This document shows, one piece after another, positions 8,538-64,000 of a stretch of DNA of 64,000 bases. Numbering within the stretch: position 1 is the first letter of the stretch; every line of letters begins with the position of its first letter. The notes beneath the pieces are model-generated. The model made no database searches, was not told the DNA's origin, and worked only from the letters and a program-made list of their open reading frames with translations. The position numbers and the translations under genes are program-made. This DNA is from Escherichia phage JLBYU24. The stretch lies in sequence record OK272476.1, one strand, 5' to 3'.

Positions 8538-9008
8538 TTAATCATGTGTCCACACCCCATCGGTATTTGACCAAAGTCGCTGATTATCTGATCCTCGCCA
8601 CAGCTTTTTGGTCGGAAGATTTTTCTCATACTTCCCATCAATAATAACATCAACATATTTAAGCATTTCTAGTTGTTTAATATCTTCAAACTTATATCCT
8701 GTCCACAACCAAATGCTTTTATTGGGATAAAGATTTTTTACTGTTTGAACAATGCAATGAATCACATCTCTGTTATCAGGATAAAGAGGGTCACCCCCAG
8801 TTATAGTTAATCCTTCTATATAATCATTATTCAAACATTCAATTAATTGCTCTAGTGTCTCTCCAGTGAATGGAATACCATTTCTAGCATTCCATGTTGA
8901 TTTATTATAACACCCTTCGCATTTATGCAAACAACCTGTAACGAAAAGAACGACCCTGCAACCAGGGCCATTCACAAAATCGCAAGGATAAAATCTATCA
9001 TAATTCAT
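8538..9008 (-). CDS. nrdG: Anaerobic ribonucleotide reductase activating protein (radical SAM)
   Basis: 156 aa, CxxxCxxC-type cluster GCLHKCEGC, start overlaps nrdD stop. Confidence 0.9.
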   Translation of the reverse strand: MNYDRFYPCDFVNGPGCRVVLFVTGCLHKCEGCYNKSTWNARNGIPFTGETLEQLIECLNNDYIEGLTITGGDPLYPDNRDVIHCIVQTVKNLYPNKSIWLWTGYKFEDIKQLEMLKYVDVIIDGKYEKNLPTKKLWRGSDNQRLWSNTDGVWTHD

Positions 9009-10822
9009 TGGTGTTTAACCCTATGCATGATTTCTTTATTTTTACCGAGATTAAATCCGCGCTCGTTCGGATTTCCCAAATAACCACATGTTCTTCTTAT
9101 GGTATTCATCTTTTTAGGATCAGTTTCTCCACAAATAGAACAAACAAATCCGTTTTCAGTAGGAGTCATTTCATGAGTACTTCCACACGTAAAACATTTA
9201 TCTACTGGCATATTAACACCAAAATAATCTAAATGTTGTGCAGCATAATCCCACACGGCCTCAAGACCTTTTAAGTTATTTTTCATATCAGGAAGTTCAA
9301 CATAAGAAATGTGACCACCTGTCGCAATGAAATGATATGGCGCTTCACGAGAAATCTTTTCAAACGGAGTAATATTTTCTTCTACTGAAACATGGAAACT
9401 GTTAGTGTACCAGCCTTTATCAGTAACATCCTTTACACTTCCATATTTCTCAGTATCAAGTTTACAGAAGCGATAACAAAGGTTTTCAGCAGGTGTAGAA
9501 TACAAGCTAAAAGCAAAACCAGTTCTTTCAGTCCACTGCTTAAGACGAGCATTCATTTTAGTTAAAATTTCCTGTCCAATATCACGACCGACAAGAATAT
9601 TCAATTCGTGAATACCAATGTATCCTAAGGACACTGAACTTCTACCGTTTTTAAATAACTCAATTATGTCGTCATCAGGTTTAAGACGGACCCCGAATGC
9701 ACCTTCTTGGTAAAGAATAGGAGCAACAGTCGCTTTAACTCCTTTTAATGAACTAATTCTACACATCAATGCTTCAAAACACAAATCCATTCGTTCATTG
9801 AACAATTCGGCAAATTTCTGTTCATTGAACTGTGTTCCAATATAAGAATCTAATGCAATACGAGGAAGATTCAGTGTTACAACGCCAAGATTATTACGTC
9901 CATCAAGAATTTCATTACCAGTCGAATCTTTCCATACGCTCAAGAAACTGCGGCAACCCATTGGAGAAACAGGAATAGATGAACCTGTGATAGCTTTATT
10001 GTTCTTAGCTGAAATAATATCAGGATACATTCTTTTGCTTGCACACTCTAGAGCAAGCTGTTTAATATCATAGTTCGGATCGTCTTTGTAAAGATTAACA
10101 CCTTCTTCAACGAACATAACAAGCTTAGGGAAAATAGGAGTTATCCCATCACGACCGAGACCTTTAATACGATTTTTCAGAATTGCTTTCTGAATCATTC
10201 GTTCAGTCCAGTCAGTTCCCGTGCCAAATGTAATTGTTACAAAAGGCGTTTGTCCATTTGAACTAAAGAGAGTATTTACTTCATATTCATAAGCTTGGAA
10301 CGCATCGTATACGTCTTTTTCTGTTTTAGATTGGGCATAATTCAACGCATCAGCGATTTGCCATTTTTCTGCATCCTCAATATGTTTTGCATAGGTGCGT
10401 TTAACATAAGGAGAAAGGACTTTGTCTACATTTGCAAAAGTCGTTCCACCGTATTGATGGGAAGCAACCTGTGCAGTAATTTGTGCCATAATTGCAGTAG
10501 CAACACCGATTGATTTAGGAGTTTCAATCTGTGCATTACCGAGCTTAAATCCGTTCTCAAGCATTCCTTTTAAATCTACTAAACAGCAATTAGTAAATGG
10601 AAGAGCAGGGGAATAATCAATATCATGGAAATGAATAATTCCGCTTTCATGCGCTTTCATAATAAAAGACGGGACCATATTTTTGGCAATGTGTTTAGAC
10701 ACAATACCAGCCATAAGGTCCCGTTGAGTTGGAAAAACACGAGAATCTTTATTAGCATTCTCGTTCAAAAGGTCTTTATTAGTTTTATGAATCAATCCTT
10801 CAATTTCTTTTTCAATTGTCAT
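9005..10822 (-). CDS. nrdD: Anaerobic ribonucleoside-triphosphate reductase (class III), uninterrupted
   Basis: 605 aa, C-terminal glycyl-radical motif RRTCGY and Zn-ribbon cysteines CFTCGS...CSIC. Confidence 0.95.
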   Translation of the reverse strand: MTIEKEIEGLIHKTNKDLLNENANKDSRVFPTQRDLMAGIVSKHIAKNMVPSFIMKAHESGIIHFHDIDYSPALPFTNCCLVDLKGMLENGFKLGNAQIETPKSIGVATAIMAQITAQVASHQYGGTTFANVDKVLSPYVKRTYAKHIEDAEKWQIADALNYAQSKTEKDVYDAFQAYEYEVNTLFSSNGQTPFVTITFGTGTDWTERMIQKAILKNRIKGLGRDGITPIFPKLVMFVEEGVNLYKDDPNYDIKQLALECASKRMYPDIISAKNNKAITGSSIPVSPMGCRSFLSVWKDSTGNEILDGRNNLGVVTLNLPRIALDSYIGTQFNEQKFAELFNERMDLCFEALMCRISSLKGVKATVAPILYQEGAFGVRLKPDDDIIELFKNGRSSVSLGYIGIHELNILVGRDIGQEILTKMNARLKQWTERTGFAFSLYSTPAENLCYRFCKLDTEKYGSVKDVTDKGWYTNSFHVSVEENITPFEKISREAPYHFIATGGHISYVELPDMKNNLKGLEAVWDYAAQHLDYFGVNMPVDKCFTCGSTHEMTPTENGFVCSICGETDPKKMNTIRRTCGYLGNPNERGFNLGKNKEIMHRVKHQ

Positions 10823-28490: not shown

Positions 28491-28750
28491 ATACTTGCTT
28501 CTTTGAGTTTCGTTTTAGCAATAGTTAACTGATCGAGGCTTTCGGCGTAATTCTTCGCGAGTTCATCATCTTCACAGCTATCAAATGCTTCCCAAAATTC
28601 ATCGTATAAAGCATCAAAGATAAGTCCTAAACGAACTTCAGCGTCTTTAATAGCATTTACTTTACCGATTTTTTCGTCGGTATGCGGCTTATAACCTTTA
28701 ATGTCTTCAATCATATTTGACTTCCTCACCAGTACATAAATCATATTCAA
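28448..28750 (-). CDS. Hypothetical protein (start uncertain)
   Basis: ORF track; overlaps neighbours if first ATG used. Confidence 0.5.
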
Positions 28751-28928
28751 CTAAACGAATAGGTTCATGAATGCCATATCCCTGAACAGAAATTTCTGTC
28801 GTAGGATAAATTCCATCAATATCACCCATATTCCACGCTTCGTTAAATTGCTGTTCGCCTGAATTACTAAACCACTCGGCGAAAGCATTTAGCACATCTT
28901 TAGAACCTTCAATAATTATCTTTGCCAT
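28707..28928 (-). CDS. Hypothetical protein
   Basis: ORF track. Confidence 0.55.
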   Translation of the reverse strand: MAKIIIEGSKDVLNAFAEWFSNSGEQQFNEAWNMGDIDGIYPTTEISVQGYGIHEPIRLVEYDLCTGEEVKYD

Positions 28929-29290
28929 TATAAGCTCTCAGTAAAGGTACGAGCAATAACGTCGCGCTGCTGTTCCGGAGTCAGAGAATTAAAGCGAACT
29001 GCATAACCTGATACACGGATGGTCAGCTGCGGATATTTTTCCGGATGCTTAACTGCATCTTCCAGAGTTTCACGACGCAGAACGTTAACGTTCAGGTGTT
29101 GACCACCTTCAATTTTAACTGTAGGCTGTGGCTCAATTTCAATTTCACGGGCATGCAAACCGTAGAAAATTTCTGGGTCTACAAAAGAGTCCTCTTTAAA
29201 GGTTTTAGAGACAATAATTCGTGCTTGAATACCATCTTCAAAATAAATAGTACCTTTATGTGTGCCTTCAAGAATTTGATATGCTTTCAT
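28928..29290 (-). CDS. Autonomous glycyl-radical cofactor protein (GrcA/YfiD-like; T4 Y06I-type)
   Basis: 120 aa; C-terminal [60 protein letters not shown] is a glycyl-radical domain (RVSGY) closely resembling E. coli GrcA from memory. Confidence 0.85.
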
Positions 29291-29297
29291 ATAAACC

Positions 29298-29678
29298 TCA
29301 ATTAGAAAATAAATTTATCCAAGATTGTTCTTTAATTAAAAATGGCTCAGAATCATATGCCATTAAACTTTGGGTGATTAGTCCTTTAAAAGGCCCATCA
29401 ATAAATTCCATGGTAAAATATGGAATTTTATTCATTAGCCGTGCATTAGGAGCAGTGCACAAAACTCTGCATCCTTTGAATACGCCTTTTTGTAATTTGT
29501 ATTGCTTGGGATAAAATTCGCTTAAAATGTTATTATTTGCCAAAATTTCAAAATGATTTACCAATTTATTTTTAATAGTTTTTGGCGAAAAATAGAGATA
29601 TTCGAAAAGCTGTGTGTCTGTCATCATTGCATTCCGATTACGAAAAACTGTGGACGAGTAATACCACCAATGCAACAT
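29298..29678 (-). CDS. Hypothetical protein (start possibly 29624)
   Basis: ORF track; TAATG coupling if Met at 29624. Confidence 0.55.
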
Positions 29679-30307: not shown

Positions 30308-30781
30308 TTATTTGAACGATTTAACGTACTGAATAGAACCTTTACTATTCACAAAGGCAATTTTACCATTTTTATTATACATGGTAGCAGTACGTTGATA
30401 ACCATAAGTTTGTTTACCAGATTGATAACCAACTAATGCGAAATTATCTTCGCCCATTTTATTCTGTTTAGCGCGAATGCGTTCATGACCATGTGCCATA
30501 AGAACCTTAGCATCACCAGTTGCAATGGATCGACGAGTTTTTTCATCTTCAACTGTATTAACAAAGTCGTCAAATGAATCAAATTTAGCATGAGATTTAT
30601 TATACAATTTTCCATCTACTGCATAATTATATCCCTGTACATCCATCTCAACTTCTGTACCATCATCCAATACAGCAGTGATTTTTTGACCTTTTTTAAA
30701 TTTCAAAAGATCAGTAAAAGATTCAGCAATAATTTGAGAATTAATAGCTGCTTCAGTGATAAATTCTTGATATGTTTTCAT
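30308..30781 (-). CDS. Internal-protein-like (capsid-targeted) protein
   Basis: 157 aa; N-terminus MKTYQEFITEA matches the T4 internal-protein capsid targeting sequence; located beside denV/e as ipII/ipIII in T4. Confidence 0.7.
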   Translation of the reverse strand: MKTYQEFITEAAINSQIIAESFTDLLKFKKGQKITAVLDDGTEVEMDVQGYNYAVDGKLYNKSHAKFDSFDDFVNTVEDEKTRRSIATGDAKVLMAHGHERIRAKQNKMGEDNFALVGYQSGKQTYGYQRTATMYNKNGKIAFVNSKGSIQYVKSFK

Positions 30782-30790
30782 ATGTTTCCT

Positions 30791-31207
30791 TTAAATGTAA
30801 ATATTTTTACCGTAATACTTATACCAATGTGGTTTCATTAAAATTTTTTCATCAAGTCGTTGTTGACTCAATTTAATAGCTGATTTGCATGGATTATAAT
30901 CATTTTTCCATTCTACTGGAATATCGCTGATGTCAGGAACTTCAGTATCTTTTATACTGAACCCGCGTTTTAAGCATTCCGTTATAATGTCTAATTGACG
31001 CTTTCGCAAAAATTCTAACTTATCGTAAAAGAACGTAACATGACCAGAACCTAAAATAAACTCGGAAGATATTTTAAAATCTTTAACGCGCTTACCGTTT
31101 GCCACATGCTTACGAACTATACCAAAAACACGCGGCAATTCACGGTATTCTGCGATTAAATGTTGATCAGCAAGTTCAGATACTAAAGTCAAATTAATAC
31201 GAGTCAT
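30791..31207 (-). CDS. denV: Endonuclease V (pyrimidine-dimer DNA glycosylase)
   Basis: 138 aa, [17 protein letters not shown]...WYKYYGK recalled as T4 endo V. Confidence 0.9.
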
Positions 31208-36498: not shown

Positions 36499-36574
36499 TG
36501 GTCGAGGCAGTAGGGATCGAACCTACGACCTAGGACTTAGAAGGTCCTTGCTCTTCCTTCTGAGCTATGCCTCG
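36499..36574 (-). tRNA. tRNA-Arg (anticodon UCU), CCA encoded
   Basis: Manual fold: acceptor CGAGGCA/TGCCTCG, anticodon stem AGGAC/GTCCT, loop CTTCTAA, T-loop TTCGATC. Confidence 0.85.
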
Positions 36575-36578
36575 GATT

Positions 36579-36653
36579 TGGCGGACGTGATAGGATTCGA
36601 ACCTATAACCAATCGCTTAACAGGCGATCGCTCTGCCATTGAGCTACACATCC
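36579..36653 (-). tRNA. tRNA-Asn (anticodon GUU), CCA encoded
   Basis: Manual fold: all stems canonical; anticodon loop CTGTTAA. Confidence 0.8.
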
Positions 36654-36657
36654 AAAT

Positions 36658-36744
36658 TGGTGGGGAGTGATGGAGTCGAACCACCCGAGTCGCAATGACA
36701 ATGGATTTACAGTCCACACCGCTACCTCTACGGGATAACTCCCC
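36658..36744 (-). tRNA. tRNA-Tyr (anticodon GUA), long variable arm, CCA encoded
   Basis: Manual fold: acceptor GGGGAGT/ACTCCCC, anticodon loop CTGTAAA, long variable arm. Confidence 0.7.
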
Positions 36745-36756
36745 TAATTCATAATT

Positions 36757-36831
36757 TGGTGGCCCTGGGTGGAATTGAACCACCATCTGGCGATTATGAG
36801 TCGCTTGCTTGAACCTTCCAGCTACAGGGCC
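36757..36831 (-). tRNA. tRNA with CAU anticodon (Ile-lysidine type as in T4, or Met), CCA encoded
   Basis: Manual fold: acceptor GGCCCTG/CAGGGCC, anticodon loop CTCATAA. Confidence 0.75.
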
Positions 36832-36832
36832 T

Positions 36833-36908
36833 TGGTGCTGATTGACGGAATCGAACCGCCGACCTTCTCATTACAAGTGAGTTGCTCTACCTACTGAGCT
36901 AAATCAGC
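36833..36908 (-). tRNA. tRNA-Thr (anticodon UGU), CCA encoded
   Basis: Manual fold: acceptor GCTGATT/AATCAGC, D-stem GCTC/GAGC, anticodon loop CTTGTAA. Confidence 0.8.
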
Positions 36909-36913
36909 AAAAC

Positions 36914-37003
36914 TGGCGGAGGCGATAGGATTTGAACCTATGAGTCGCCGGAGCGACTGCCGGTTTTCAAGACCGGTGCATTAAACCACTCTGCCACGCC
37001 TCC
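36914..37003 (-). tRNA. tRNA-Ser (anticodon UGA), long variable arm, CCA encoded
   Basis: Manual fold: acceptor GGAGGCG/CGCCTCC, anticodon stem CCGGT/ACCGG, loop CTTGAAA. Confidence 0.8.
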
Positions 37004-37009
37004 AAATAT

Positions 37010-37660
37010 TTATATATTGTTAATTTGATTTAGAATTCTTTTTGCTTGAGTATGACTTACGCCAATATGCTTAGCATATTTAGACAATTCGCCACGTTTA
37101 GAAAAATCATATAATTTAGAAATTTCTATTCTTCTTTTTCTTTCATCCGCAGAAACTTTTGCTTCGTTTGCTTTTGCTATTTTACGTTTAGCTTCTTGAG
37201 AATGAGTTTTACCAGCAAAGCCATTCTTCATTAATCCATTTGAAGACCATCCTTTTAATTTTCCGTTAGAATGTGCCTTTTTAACACCCAATGAAATTAA
37301 TTCGCGTTGCTGATCTGTCATAGGATAATTATTTATATGGTCCCATCCACCTTCACCTCCAAGTTTTAAATTATACACATCTGGTCTATTTAAAAACTCT
37401 TCTGTGACAATATTTTTCTCGGCTTCAAGCATAGATTCTTTATCGTCAAAATACTCTAATATTTCTTTAGAAAAATTTTCTATACCATATTTATCTTGGG
37501 CTCTTTTTAATAATTTACCAGAACCCATATATCCATCATCTAAATTTTCGGTAGAATGCACACCAATATAAATTTTATTATTAATTTTATTTGTTATTTT
37601 ATAAAGATAAAAATGCATATCAGTCCCTAATAAAGAACTGAGCGTCTCACGACGAGTCAT
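37010..37660 (-). CDS. GIY-YIG homing endonuclease (Seg-like) inserted between the tRNA subclusters
   Basis: 216 aa; GIY-YIG motifs FYLYKITN...KIYIGVH, conserved R/E/N positions, basic C-terminal DNA-binding region; start may be Met at 37618. Confidence 0.8.
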   Translation of the reverse strand: MTRRETLSSLLGTDMHFYLYKITNKINNKIYIGVHSTENLDDGYMGSGKLLKRAQDKYGIENFSKEILEYFDDKESMLEAEKNIVTEEFLNRPDVYNLKLGGEGGWDHINNYPMTDQQRELISLGVKKAHSNGKLKGWSSNGLMKNGFAGKTHSQEAKRKIAKANEAKVSADERKRRIEISKLYDFSKRGELSKYAKHIGVSHTQAKRILNQINNI

Positions 37661-37664
37661 AAAT

Positions 37665-37738
<74 letters not shown>

Positions 37739-37743
37739 AAATT

Positions 37744-37832
37744 TGGTGCGAGAAGTGGGACTCGAACCCACAAGGAAATCATTCCGCAGCATTTTAAGTG
37801 CTGTGCCTTTACCAATTTGACCATTCTCGCGC
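37744..37832 (-). tRNA. tRNA-Leu (anticodon UAA), long variable arm, CCA encoded
   Basis: Manual fold: acceptor GCGCGAG/CTCGCGC, anticodon loop CTTAAAA. Confidence 0.8.
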
Positions 37833-37904
37833 TGGGAATAAAGGACTCGAACCTTTGCATCCTGGAATCAAAATCCAGTGCCTTACCAACTTGGCTAATT
37901 CCCA
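37833..37904 (-). tRNA. tRNA-Gln (anticodon UUG), 3' end abuts tRNA-Leu, CCA not encoded
   Basis: Manual fold: U1-A72 acceptor TGGGAAT/ATTCCCA, anticodon stem CTGGA/TCCAG, loop TTTTGAT. Confidence 0.75.

Positions 37905-60906: not shown

Positions 60907-64000
<3,094 letters not shown>

What the first reader, a model, noticed from the sequence alone, without database searches (positions are those of the whole stretch)
28928..29290. Host-like autonomous glycyl-radical cofactor gene carried by the phage
The C-terminal ~60 residues, including the RVSGY glycyl-radical motif, look essentially host-like (E. coli GrcA/YfiD from memory), while the N-terminal half is different. The phage also encodes class III RNR (NrdD/NrdG), whose glycyl radical is oxygen-sensitive, so a spare radical domain may rescue oxygen-cleaved NrdD or host PFL. 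A T4 homolog (Y06I) has been described; the near-host identity suggests a recent or recombinant acquisition.
Basis: partly seen in the sequence, partly recalled or inferred. Interest (0 to 1): 0.5.

Follow-up and report, generated by a model that had tools for sequence, protein, structure and literature searches.

The report
T4 vs.6: phage GrcA with host-derived tail
This is the already characterised T4-type "spare part" glycyl-radical protein (Vs.6/Y06I, a GrcA homologue) that repairs the host's oxygen-damaged pyruvate formate-lyase; its last 185 bases come from the E. coli grcA gene, and Klebsiella T4-like phages carry a K. pneumoniae tract joined at the same place.

Summary
Window 28928-29290 (-) is a 120-aa ORF, the orthologue of T4 vs.6/Y06I (119/120 aa). 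It is 100% identical to genes in three GenBank Tequatrovirus genomes.

Residues 61-120, including RVSGY with Gly95, are identical to E. coli GrcA. At DNA level, gene nt 179-363 are 97.3% identical to grcA, with a 124-nt perfect run. The same peptide in the phage's own codons would give 77% (maximum 87%).

The N-terminal half is phage-lineage but still a distant GrcA homologue (hhalign E 5e-11). The gene is therefore a mosaic: an old phage grcA homologue whose 3' half was replaced by Escherichia sequence. At least 106 phage records, mostly Klebsiella T4-like phages, carry a K. pneumoniae tract (95-98%) with the same junction, so replacement happened at least twice.

Function is known from the literature. 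Y06I receives a radical from host PFL activase and restores oxygen-cleaved PflB. Rescue of NrdD is not supported, because the two share no specific similarity. An indirect link is plausible, since PFL makes formate, the reductant of T4 NrdD.

Verdict: already known gene and mechanism. Interest is modest.

The parts
28928..29290 (-). vs.6 / Y06I orthologue: 120-aa autonomous glycyl-radical cofactor (GrcA-like) CDS, stop codon included
   Evidence: ORF. 100% nt identity to annotated 'autonomous glycyl radical cofactor' genes of phages JLBYU31 and KMB22. 9 nt and 1 aa differences from T4 vs.6 NP_049730. Full-length match to phrog_1209.
28928..29112 (-). Host-derived tract (gene nt 179-363; residues 61-120, the structured glycyl-radical domain). 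Window 28989-29112 is a 124-nt run 100% identical to E. coli grcA.
   Evidence: 180/185 nt identical to grcA in 5426/5426 E. coli genomes. GC is 46.5% against 34.8% in the 5' half and 35.1% in the window, with a local GC peak of 0.50. It is the best E. coli match within window 20001-45000.
29113..29290 (-). Phage-lineage 5' half (residues 1-60): diverged homologue of the disordered, cPFL-binding N-terminal half of GrcA
   Evidence: No DNA similarity to grcA. Conserved among T4-like phages (alignment A1). The profile-profile match to host GrcA N-termini has probability 97% and E 4.8e-11.
29003..29017 (-). RVSGY glycyl-radical motif; Gly95 corresponds to Gly102 of E. coli GrcA and Gly734 of PflB
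   Evidence: Read directly from the sequence and from the alignments to 6OWR and PflB 1CM5.
29296..29299 (-). GAGG Shine-Dalgarno, 7 nt upstream of the ATG
   Evidence: Read directly from the sequence.
28707..28928 (-). vs.5 orthologue. Its ATG overlaps the vs.6 stop (TAATG). The last ~10 nt of vs.6, which depart from the host sequence (GAGAGCTTA), carry its likely ribosome-binding site.
   Evidence: ORF; phrog_1986. Mexia's record annotates an RBS at the equivalent position. The 3'-end states are shared among phages.
9005..10822 (-). nrdD, class III ribonucleotide reductase. Context only: it consumes formate, the product of PFL.
   Evidence: Pfam NRDD E 1.8e-171 plus Gly_radical. T4 NrdD uses formate as electron donor (PMC4390871).
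8538..9008 (-). nrdG, the NrdD activase (context only)
   Evidence: Pfam Fer4_12 and Radical_SAM.

Best explanation
The ORF is the Tequatrovirus vs.6 (Y06I) gene, a stand-alone 'spare part' glycyl-radical protein.

Mechanism, reported for T4 Y06I and E. coli YfiD/GrcA: the host PFL-activating enzyme (PflA) installs a radical on the conserved glycine (here Gly95). The C-terminal 60-residue domain then docks into host pyruvate formate-lyase whose own radical domain has been cut off by oxygen at Gly734. [quoted passage not shown]

Inferred benefit: during microaerobic or fluctuating-oxygen infections the phage keeps host fermentative energy supply running. It also keeps up the supply of formate, the reductant of its own anaerobic ribonucleotide reductase NrdD.

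Evolution, shown here: the gene is a mosaic. An old phage homologue of grcA had its 3' half (gene nt 179 to about 353) replaced by Escherichia grcA sequence, presumably by homologous recombination. The phage-specific N-terminal half and the last ~10 nt, which serve the downstream gene, were kept. The same replacement, with K. pneumoniae as donor and the same junction, occurred in Klebsiella T4-like phages (PKO111, the one classified example, is a Jiaodavirus).
For: Identity:
- 119/120 aa to T4 Vs.6, in the same gene order regB-vs.3-vs.4-vs.5-vs.6-vs.7-vs.8-denV.

Domain:
- Pfam Gly_radical.
- 60/60 aa identical to GrcA and about 78% to PflB residues 697-759.

Function:
- PMC8683613 reports that YfiD and T4 Y06I are activated by PFL-AE and restore O2-cleaved PFL (Wagner 2001).
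- The same paper reports that YfiD 61-127 duplicates the PFL C-terminus, and that residues 1-60 are disordered but needed for binding cPFL.

Mosaic:
- There is a sharp identity step at nt 178/179.
- dS to E. coli is 0.047 in the 3' half, against no detectable DNA similarity to grcA in the 5' half.
- The codon-usage simulation gives a maximum of 86.7% against 97.2% observed.
- The 3' tract clusters with Escherichia in 294/300 bootstraps. Phage monophyly is recovered in 0/300.
- The N-termini are homologous.

Parallel event:
- Mexia nt 181-281 are 100% identical to K. pneumoniae grcA, and 95.4% overall, against 86% to E. coli.
- At least 106 phage records are 95-98% identical to K. pneumoniae grcA, starting at host nt 199-202 in the rows listed.

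Formate link:
- T4 NrdD uses formate (PMC4390871).
- NrdD and NrdG are in the window. NrdD is also found in T5-like and other phage groups, some of which carry grcA-like genes.
Against: - No experiment on this particular phage protein exists. The in vivo role of vs.6 in infection has not been demonstrated in anything I could read.
- The protein scores 153 bits on NCBIfam TIGR04365 (GrcA equivalog), below the 170-bit cutoff, because of its N-terminus. Its N-terminal half could therefore confer a different partner preference or kinetics.
- The formate/NrdD benefit is pure inference.
- The recombination mechanism (homologous gene conversion against illegitimate capture plus selection) is inferred from the pattern only.
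- The tract follows phage genus rather than isolation host. Yersinia-isolated Tequatroviruses carry the E. coli tract, and a Salmonella-isolated phage carries the K. pneumoniae tract. Replacement is therefore occasional, not continuous.
Confidence: 0.85

Rival explanations
1. A single ancient capture of a whole host grcA gene without later recombination. The N-terminal half then drifted quickly, while purifying selection froze the C-terminal half.
For: The C-terminal peptide is strongly conserved in all GrcA/PflB proteins. The N-terminal halves are homologous.
Against: - Selection on the protein cannot hold synonymous sites. dS to E. coli is 0.047, whereas E. coli against Citrobacter, Klebsiella and Salmonella gives 0.41-1.07 for the same codons.
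- The codon simulation gives a maximum of 86.7%.
- Sister T4-like lineages with the same 5' half have ordinary diverged 3' halves (L098 group, 82% identity) or a K. pneumoniae-type tract.
- Phage 3' tracts are never monophyletic (0/300).
Confidence: 0.03
2. Spare radical domain for the phage's own NrdD: Vs.6 replaces the oxygen-cleaved C-terminus of class III RNR.
For: NrdD and NrdG are encoded about 19 kb away. NrdD is also oxygen-cleaved at its glycyl radical (established knowledge). PMC8683613 speculates that GrcA-like proteins might repair other glycyl radical enzymes.
Against: - There is no specific similarity between Vs.6 and the window's NrdD (BLASTP best E 2.6, and not at the radical loop).
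- No NrdD chain appears among the PDB hits at E <= 1e-3, although PDB holds T4 NrdD (entry 1HK8, cited in PMC4390871). The PflB C-terminus matches at E 5e-26.
- The tract is copied from grcA, whose reported partner is PflB.
Confidence: 0.04
3. Decoy or hijacker: the phage protein uses a perfect host radical domain to compete with host GrcA/PflB for PflA or for cleaved PflB. Its divergent N-terminus would alter the outcome, for example shutting down or re-timing host fermentation rather than repairing it.
For: The N-terminal half, which in YfiD mediates cPFL binding and efficient activation, is only about 27% identical at profile level. It is conserved within phages as a distinct type. The protein falls below the GrcA equivalog cutoff.
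Against: Y06I is reported to reconstitute PFL activity in vitro just as YfiD does. Motifs shared between host and phage N-termini (IQI; ARxxV[AS]K; ED; RE) are retained.
Confidence: 0.06
4. Artefact: host reads or chimeric assembly inserted grcA sequence into the phage contig.
For: None beyond the unusual host identity and the GC step.
Against: The same mosaic, with the same junction, is present in more than 630 independent phage records. These include the 1980s Sanger sequence X04567 and the T4 reference. The reading frame is intact and coupled to vs.5.
Confidence: 0.01

Closest known systems
Bacteriophage T4 Vs.6 / Y06I (NP_049730.1; T4 63557-63919)
   Same: Orthologue: 120 aa, 119/120 identical, 354/363 nt, and the same neighbours (vs.5, vs.7, vs.8, regB, denV). 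It has the same host-derived tract and junction. Reported to be activated by PFL-AE and to restore O2-cleaved PFL.
   Different: R73 here (as in the host) against H73 in the T4 reference. The two phages differ from E. coli at different synonymous sites, sharing only nt 358.
E. coli GrcA / YfiD (P68066; PDB 6OWR)
   Same: The C-terminal 60 residues are identical, and 180/185 nt are identical. Gly95 corresponds to Gly102. The N-terminal half is homologous at profile level.
   Different: It is 7 residues shorter. The N-terminal half has about 27% profile identity and no DNA similarity. It scores 153 bits on TIGR04365 against a 170-bit cutoff, where E. coli GrcA scores 234. It is encoded by a lytic phage inside an early-region operon.
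C-terminal glycyl-radical domain of pyruvate formate-lyase PflB (residues 697-759; PDB 1CM5/2PFL)
   Same: About 78% identity over 63 residues, with the same RVSGYAV loop. This is the element that Vs.6/GrcA substitutes for.
   Different: There is no catalytic barrel and no Cys418/Cys419. 'Pyruvate formate-lyase' labels on phage records are over-annotations.
GrcA-like genes of Klebsiella T4-like phages (KPV15, KP17, Mexia, Roth series; relative PKO111 is classified as Jiaodavirus)
   Same: Same length, a homologous phage-type 5' half (74% nt identity for Mexia), the same junction (nt ~179-181) and the same phage-type last ~10 nt.
   Different: The donor of the 3' tract is K. pneumoniae grcA (95-98%; 86% to E. 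coli). This indicates an independent replacement.
GrcA-like ORFs of T5-like, Slopekvirus, Pseudotevenvirus, Krischvirus and jumbo phages
   Same: Small proteins with a variable N-terminus and a conserved [10 protein letters not shown]...RVSGYAVRF domain. Members of some of these groups also encode NrdD.
   Different: Their 3' halves are ordinary diverged sequences (70-84% to any sampled host grcA) that form phage-only clades.

Membership tests
Autonomous glycyl radical cofactor (GrcA/YfiD; NCBIfam TIGR04365, InterPro IPR011140) | Small stand-alone protein (~120-130 aa) consisting of little more than a glycyl-radical domain | tested here: met
   120-aa ORF. Its only Pfam domain is Gly_radical, at residues 61-101.
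Autonomous glycyl radical cofactor (GrcA/YfiD; NCBIfam TIGR04365, InterPro IPR011140) | C-terminal domain duplicating PflB residues ~693-759, with the RVSGYAV radical loop | tested here: met
   60/60 aa identical to GrcA 68-127 and about 78% to PflB 697-759. RVSGY lies at residues 92-96.
Autonomous glycyl radical cofactor (GrcA/YfiD; NCBIfam TIGR04365, InterPro IPR011140) | Score above the curated equivalog cutoff over the full length | tested here: not met
   153.3 bits against a 170-bit cutoff, matching profile positions 25-126 only. E. coli GrcA scores 234. The shortfall comes from the diverged N-terminal half.
Autonomous glycyl radical cofactor (GrcA/YfiD; NCBIfam TIGR04365, InterPro IPR011140) | N-terminal half homologous to the GrcA N-terminal (cPFL-binding) region | tested here: met
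   hhalign of phage N-termini (A1) against host N-termini (A2): probability 97%, E 4.8e-11, 60 aligned columns.
Autonomous glycyl radical cofactor (GrcA/YfiD; NCBIfam TIGR04365, InterPro IPR011140) | Radical installed by PFL-AE (PflA), and restoration of activity to O2-cleaved PflB | not testable with these tools
   Reported for T4 Y06I, which is 119/120 identical (Wagner et al. 2001, as summarised in PMC8683613). Not tested for this allele.
Pyruvate formate-lyase / formate C-acetyltransferase (TIGR01255), as some phage records label it | ~760-aa ten-stranded barrel with catalytic Cys418/Cys419 | tested here: not met
   Only profile positions 680-744 of 744 are matched, at 88.9 bits against a 994-bit cutoff. 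The protein has 120 aa.
Class III RNR (NrdD) radical domain or a spare part for it | Specific similarity to the NrdD C-terminal glycyl-radical region | tested here: not met
   BLASTP against the window's NrdD gives best E 2.6, and the match is not at the radical loop. No NrdD chain appears among the PDB hits.

The most novel reading that the evidence does not exclude
The radical domain of the T4-like phage GrcA is a site of repeated host-to-phage replacement. At least twice (Escherichia into Tequatrovirus/Mosigvirus, K. pneumoniae into Klebsiella T4-like phages) the 3' ~170 nt of an old phage grcA homologue was overwritten by the contemporary host's grcA. The junction was the same each time, and the phage-specific N-terminal half was kept.

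The lower synonymous divergence of the tract than of the 5' half between Tequatrovirus and Mosigvirus (dS 0.07-0.15 against 0.46) hints at further events or at phage-to-phage spread.

If this pattern is selected rather than just permitted by homology, it would mean that exact matching to the host's PflB/PflA interface matters for a strictly lytic phage. In that case vs.6 would record past host association.

I found no description of this in the papers I could search.
Probability: 0.6. Interest if true: 0.5.

Novelty: already known. Interest (0 to 1): 0.3.

Why it matters
The gene and its biochemical activity have been known since 2001, so the window adds no new kind of system.

What this analysis adds is a clean, quantified case of host DNA entering a strictly lytic, host-DNA-degrading phage by replacement within an existing homologue. 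It occurs twice, with different donors and the same junction. That is useful as a natural marker of host-phage recombination. It also argues that the phage needs a radical domain matched to its host's PFL/PFL-activase.

The analysis also sharpens the physiological hypothesis. The likely target is host PFL, and through formate the phage's own anaerobic RNR, rather than NrdD itself. This is directly testable with vs.6 deletion phages under oxygen shifts.

Tried and rejected
- **NrdD spare-part idea.** Tested by BLASTP against the window's NrdD and by the PDB search. There is no specific similarity, so I rejected it as the primary role.
- **'N-terminal half is unrelated'.** Rejected by the profile-profile comparison. 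The IMG/VR phages L110-L115 have N-termini intermediate between host and T4 types.
- **Codon-usage convergence as the cause of DNA identity.** Rejected by simulation and by host-host comparisons.
- **Ongoing, per-infection homogenisation.** Not supported. No phage is 100% identical to E. coli grcA (best 98.9%). The tract follows phage genus rather than isolation host.
- **A phage carrying a full-length host grcA.** None was found in 752 and 662 matching records. The one 'viral' contig with a full host-type gene (L120, 19 kb, 91% to Yersinia) looks like host DNA.
- **Promoter and terminator scan.** Counts equal the shuffled expectation (14 against 13.9), so nothing can be said about transcription signals.
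- **Literature.** Neither the T4 genome review (PMC150520) nor the YfiD NMR paper (PMC6754787) is held. Wagner 2001 could be used only through later papers' summaries. Searches for any description of the mosaic found nothing.
- **Host sampling.** I recovered it from chromosomes mislabelled as plasmids. Other host-matched tracts in other phage genera therefore cannot be excluded.
- **Not run.** I did not run AlphaFold or the large protein-database searches. The C-terminal domain is identical to a solved structure, and the result would not change the verdict.

Full report
**1. What is there**

Window 28928-29290 on the minus strand is an uninterrupted ATG-TAA ORF of 120 aa. A GAGG ribosome-binding site lies 7 nt upstream, and the stop codon overlaps the start of the next gene (TAATG).

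The window is a Tequatrovirus, a close relative of T4:
- The ORF is 100% identical at DNA level to genes in phages TH09, JLBYU31 and vB-Eco-KMB22, and at least 95% identical in about 480 phage records. Many of these annotate it as 'autonomous glycyl radical cofactor'.
- The neighbours are regB, vs.3-vs.8, denV, e and tk, as in T4.
- Against T4 vs.6 (Y06I, NP_049730) it differs at 9 of 363 nt and one residue, R73 here against H73.

**2.

- Pfam finds one domain, Gly_radical, at residues 61-101 (E 2.8e-18).
- Residues 61-120 are identical to residues 68-127 of E. coli GrcA/YfiD (PDB 6OWR, E 8.6e-42). They are about 78% identical to the C-terminus of PflB.
- RVSGY is residues 92-96, and Gly95 corresponds to GrcA Gly102.
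- NrdD (605 aa, 9005-10822) and NrdG (8538-9008) are in the window.

**3. The identity extends to the DNA and has a sharp edge**

- Gene nt 179-363 (window 29112-28928) match grcA in all 5426 complete E. coli genomes at 97.3% (180/185). Nothing upstream matches.
- The first 124 nt of the tract are a perfect match. All five differences are synonymous, and three lie in the last 10 nt.
- The tract has 46.5% GC, against 34.8% in the 5' half and 35.1% for the window.
- In a megablast of window 20001-45000, the grcA tract is the best E. coli match in every chromosome row listed.
- Chance and codon bias cannot explain this. Re-encoding the same 60 residues with this phage's codon usage gives 76.8 +/- 2.3% identity, with a maximum of 86.7% in 20,000 draws. 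Bacteria with the identical peptide are only 84-93% identical to E. coli outside Escherichia.

**4. The N-terminal half is divergent, not foreign**

T4-like phages share a conserved N-terminal pattern, [28 protein letters not shown]...RE..IE.QP.VK (alignment A1). A profile of these N-termini aligns end to end with a profile of bacterial GrcA N-termini (hhalign probability 97%, E 4.8e-11, 27% identity). Some IMG/VR phages have intermediate sequences.

The ancestral phage gene was therefore a complete grcA homologue. The present gene is a mosaic of an old phage 5' half and a young host 3' half.

**5. Donor, timing and a parallel case**

I compared the 3' tract with grcA from 81 bacterial species plus K. 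pneumoniae.

*Donor.* The tract of Tequatrovirus and Mosigvirus is closest to E. coli (96-98.9%). The nearest non-Escherichia species, Citrobacter, is at about 90%. A neighbour-joining tree puts these phage tracts inside an Escherichia clade in 294/300 bootstraps.

*Timing.*
- Synonymous divergence from E. coli is 0.02-0.10. That is similar to E. coli against a cryptic Escherichia lineage (0.047).
- It is far below E. coli against Citrobacter, Klebsiella or Salmonella (0.41-1.07).

*Junction.* In every row listed from the 752 phage records that match E. coli grcA, the match starts at host nt 200. None covers the 5' half, and none is 100% identical.

*Parallel case.*
- Klebsiella T4-like phages share the phage-type 5' half (74% nt identity to the window for phage Mexia) and the same junction. 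PKO111, the one classified example, is a Jiaodavirus.
- Their tract is K. pneumoniae grcA. Mexia nt 181-281 are 100% identical and the overall figure is 95.4%, against 86% to E. coli.
- At least 106 phage records are 95-98% identical to K. pneumoniae grcA from host nt 199-202 in the rows listed.
- Phage tracts from the E. coli phages and the Klebsiella phages were never monophyletic (0/300).
- So at least two independent host-to-phage replacements occurred at the same place.

*Other phage lineages.* The L098 group, Slopekvirus, Pseudotevenvirus, Krischvirus, T5-like and jumbo phages have ordinary diverged 3' halves, 70-84% to any sampled host.

*Tequatrovirus against Mosigvirus.*
- The tract is the best-conserved stretch of the locus, at 97% against 37-90% around it.
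- Its dS is 0.07-0.15, against 0.46 in the 5' half. Fisher p is 0.004 for T4 and 0.06 for the window.
- This hints at separate events or phage-to-phage spread, but the counts are small.

*Not continuous.* The tract follows phage genus rather than isolation host. Yersinia-isolated Tequatroviruses carry the E. coli tract, and a Salmonella-isolated phage carries the K. pneumoniae tract. Replacement is therefore occasional.

*Last ~10 nt.* These are phage-type in all lineages. They overlap the ribosome-binding site and start of vs.5.

**6. How it works**

*Reported in the literature.*
- E. coli YfiD and T4 Y06I are 'spare part' proteins. PFL-activating enzyme installs the glycyl radical on them. 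They then complex with PFL that oxygen has cleaved at Gly734 and restore its activity (PMC8683613, citing Wagner et al. 2001).
- YfiD residues 61-127 duplicate the PFL C-terminus. Residues 1-60 are disordered but needed for cPFL binding and efficient activation.
- The junction found here lies seven residues into the structured half (YfiD residue 67/68), close to that domain boundary.

*Inferred.*
- This allele, 119/120 identical to Y06I, does the same.
- The benefit is maintenance of PFL flux in oxygen-perturbed anaerobic infections. This includes formate, which is the electron donor of T4 NrdD (PMC4390871).
- NrdD also occurs in T5-like and other phage groups, some of which carry grcA-like genes.

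*Not supported.* Direct repair of NrdD is not supported by sequence.

**7. Membership**

The protein meets the architectural and domain criteria of GrcA, and its N-terminus is homologous. It nevertheless falls below the NCBIfam equivalog cutoff (153 against 170 bits). It is best described as the phage (Vs.6) subtype of GrcA. It is not a pyruvate formate-lyase, although many phage records label it so.

**8. Verdict**

This analysis adds:
- the exact breakpoint;
- the demonstration that the 5' half is an old homologue;
- the Escherichia donor;
- an independent K. pneumoniae-derived twin in Klebsiella phages.

I found no description of this mosaic in the searchable literature.

**Limits**

- Host sampling was 82 species.
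- The tract is short (185 nt).
- No experimental data exist for this allele.
- Transcription signals could not be assessed.

Noticed in passing
window 30308-30781 (-): A 157-aa ORF matches Pfam DUF7412 and phrog_3155 'internal virion protein'. It begins MKTYQEFITEA, like the capsid-targeting sequence of T4 IPII/IPIII (from memory). It lies between denV (30791-31207) and vs.8, whereas T4 has ipII/ipIII between denV and e. This looks like an alternative internal-protein cassette, possibly anti-restriction cargo.
   Followed up: partly
window 9005-10822 (-): nrdD is a single uninterrupted 605-aa ORF, so the group I intron of T4 nrdD (from memory) is absent. Some close relatives show nrdD split in two pieces with a homing endonuclease between them (H161 and H163).
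   Followed up: no
L004 (Klebsiella phage Mexia) 581-681; at least 106 phage records: Klebsiella T4-like phages carry a grcA-like gene whose 3' tract is 95-98% identical to K. pneumoniae grcA, with a 100-nt perfect run in Mexia. The junction is the same as that of the E. coli tract in Tequatrovirus, so this is an independent host-to-phage replacement.
   Followed up: yes
window 36499-37904 (-): A cluster of 9 tRNA genes (Arg, Asn, Tyr, Met, Thr, Ser, Gly, Leu, Gln). The tRNA-Tyr segment matches an E. coli plasmid record at 91.5% (H207).
   Followed up: no
L172 (CP125156.1), L173, and H134-H137: Several multi-megabase 'plasmid' records in PLSDB (for example a 5.37-Mb K. pneumoniae 'plasmid unnamed2') are evidently chromosomes labelled as plasmids. 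That mislabelling is the only reason K. pneumoniae grcA could be retrieved.
   Followed up: no
L034 (NZ_CP170105.1, Klebsiella sp. WOUb02 plasmid unnamed4, 275 kb): A full-length grcA lies on a 275-kb replicon labelled as a plasmid. It may be a chromid or a mislabelled chromosome fragment.
   Followed up: no
L009 (phage T5) 420-788: The annotated T5 GrcA-like CDS overlaps an annotated tRNA-Met (399-474) by 55 nt. The longer upstream start chosen in some records may be wrong, because the conserved MKAYQ start lies further downstream in relatives.
   Followed up: no
phage records: The same 120-aa gene is variously annotated as 'pyruvate formate-lyase', 'formate C-acetyltransferase', 'hypothetical protein' or 'GrcA'. 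The first two are over-annotations, since only the 60-aa radical domain is present.
   Followed up: yes
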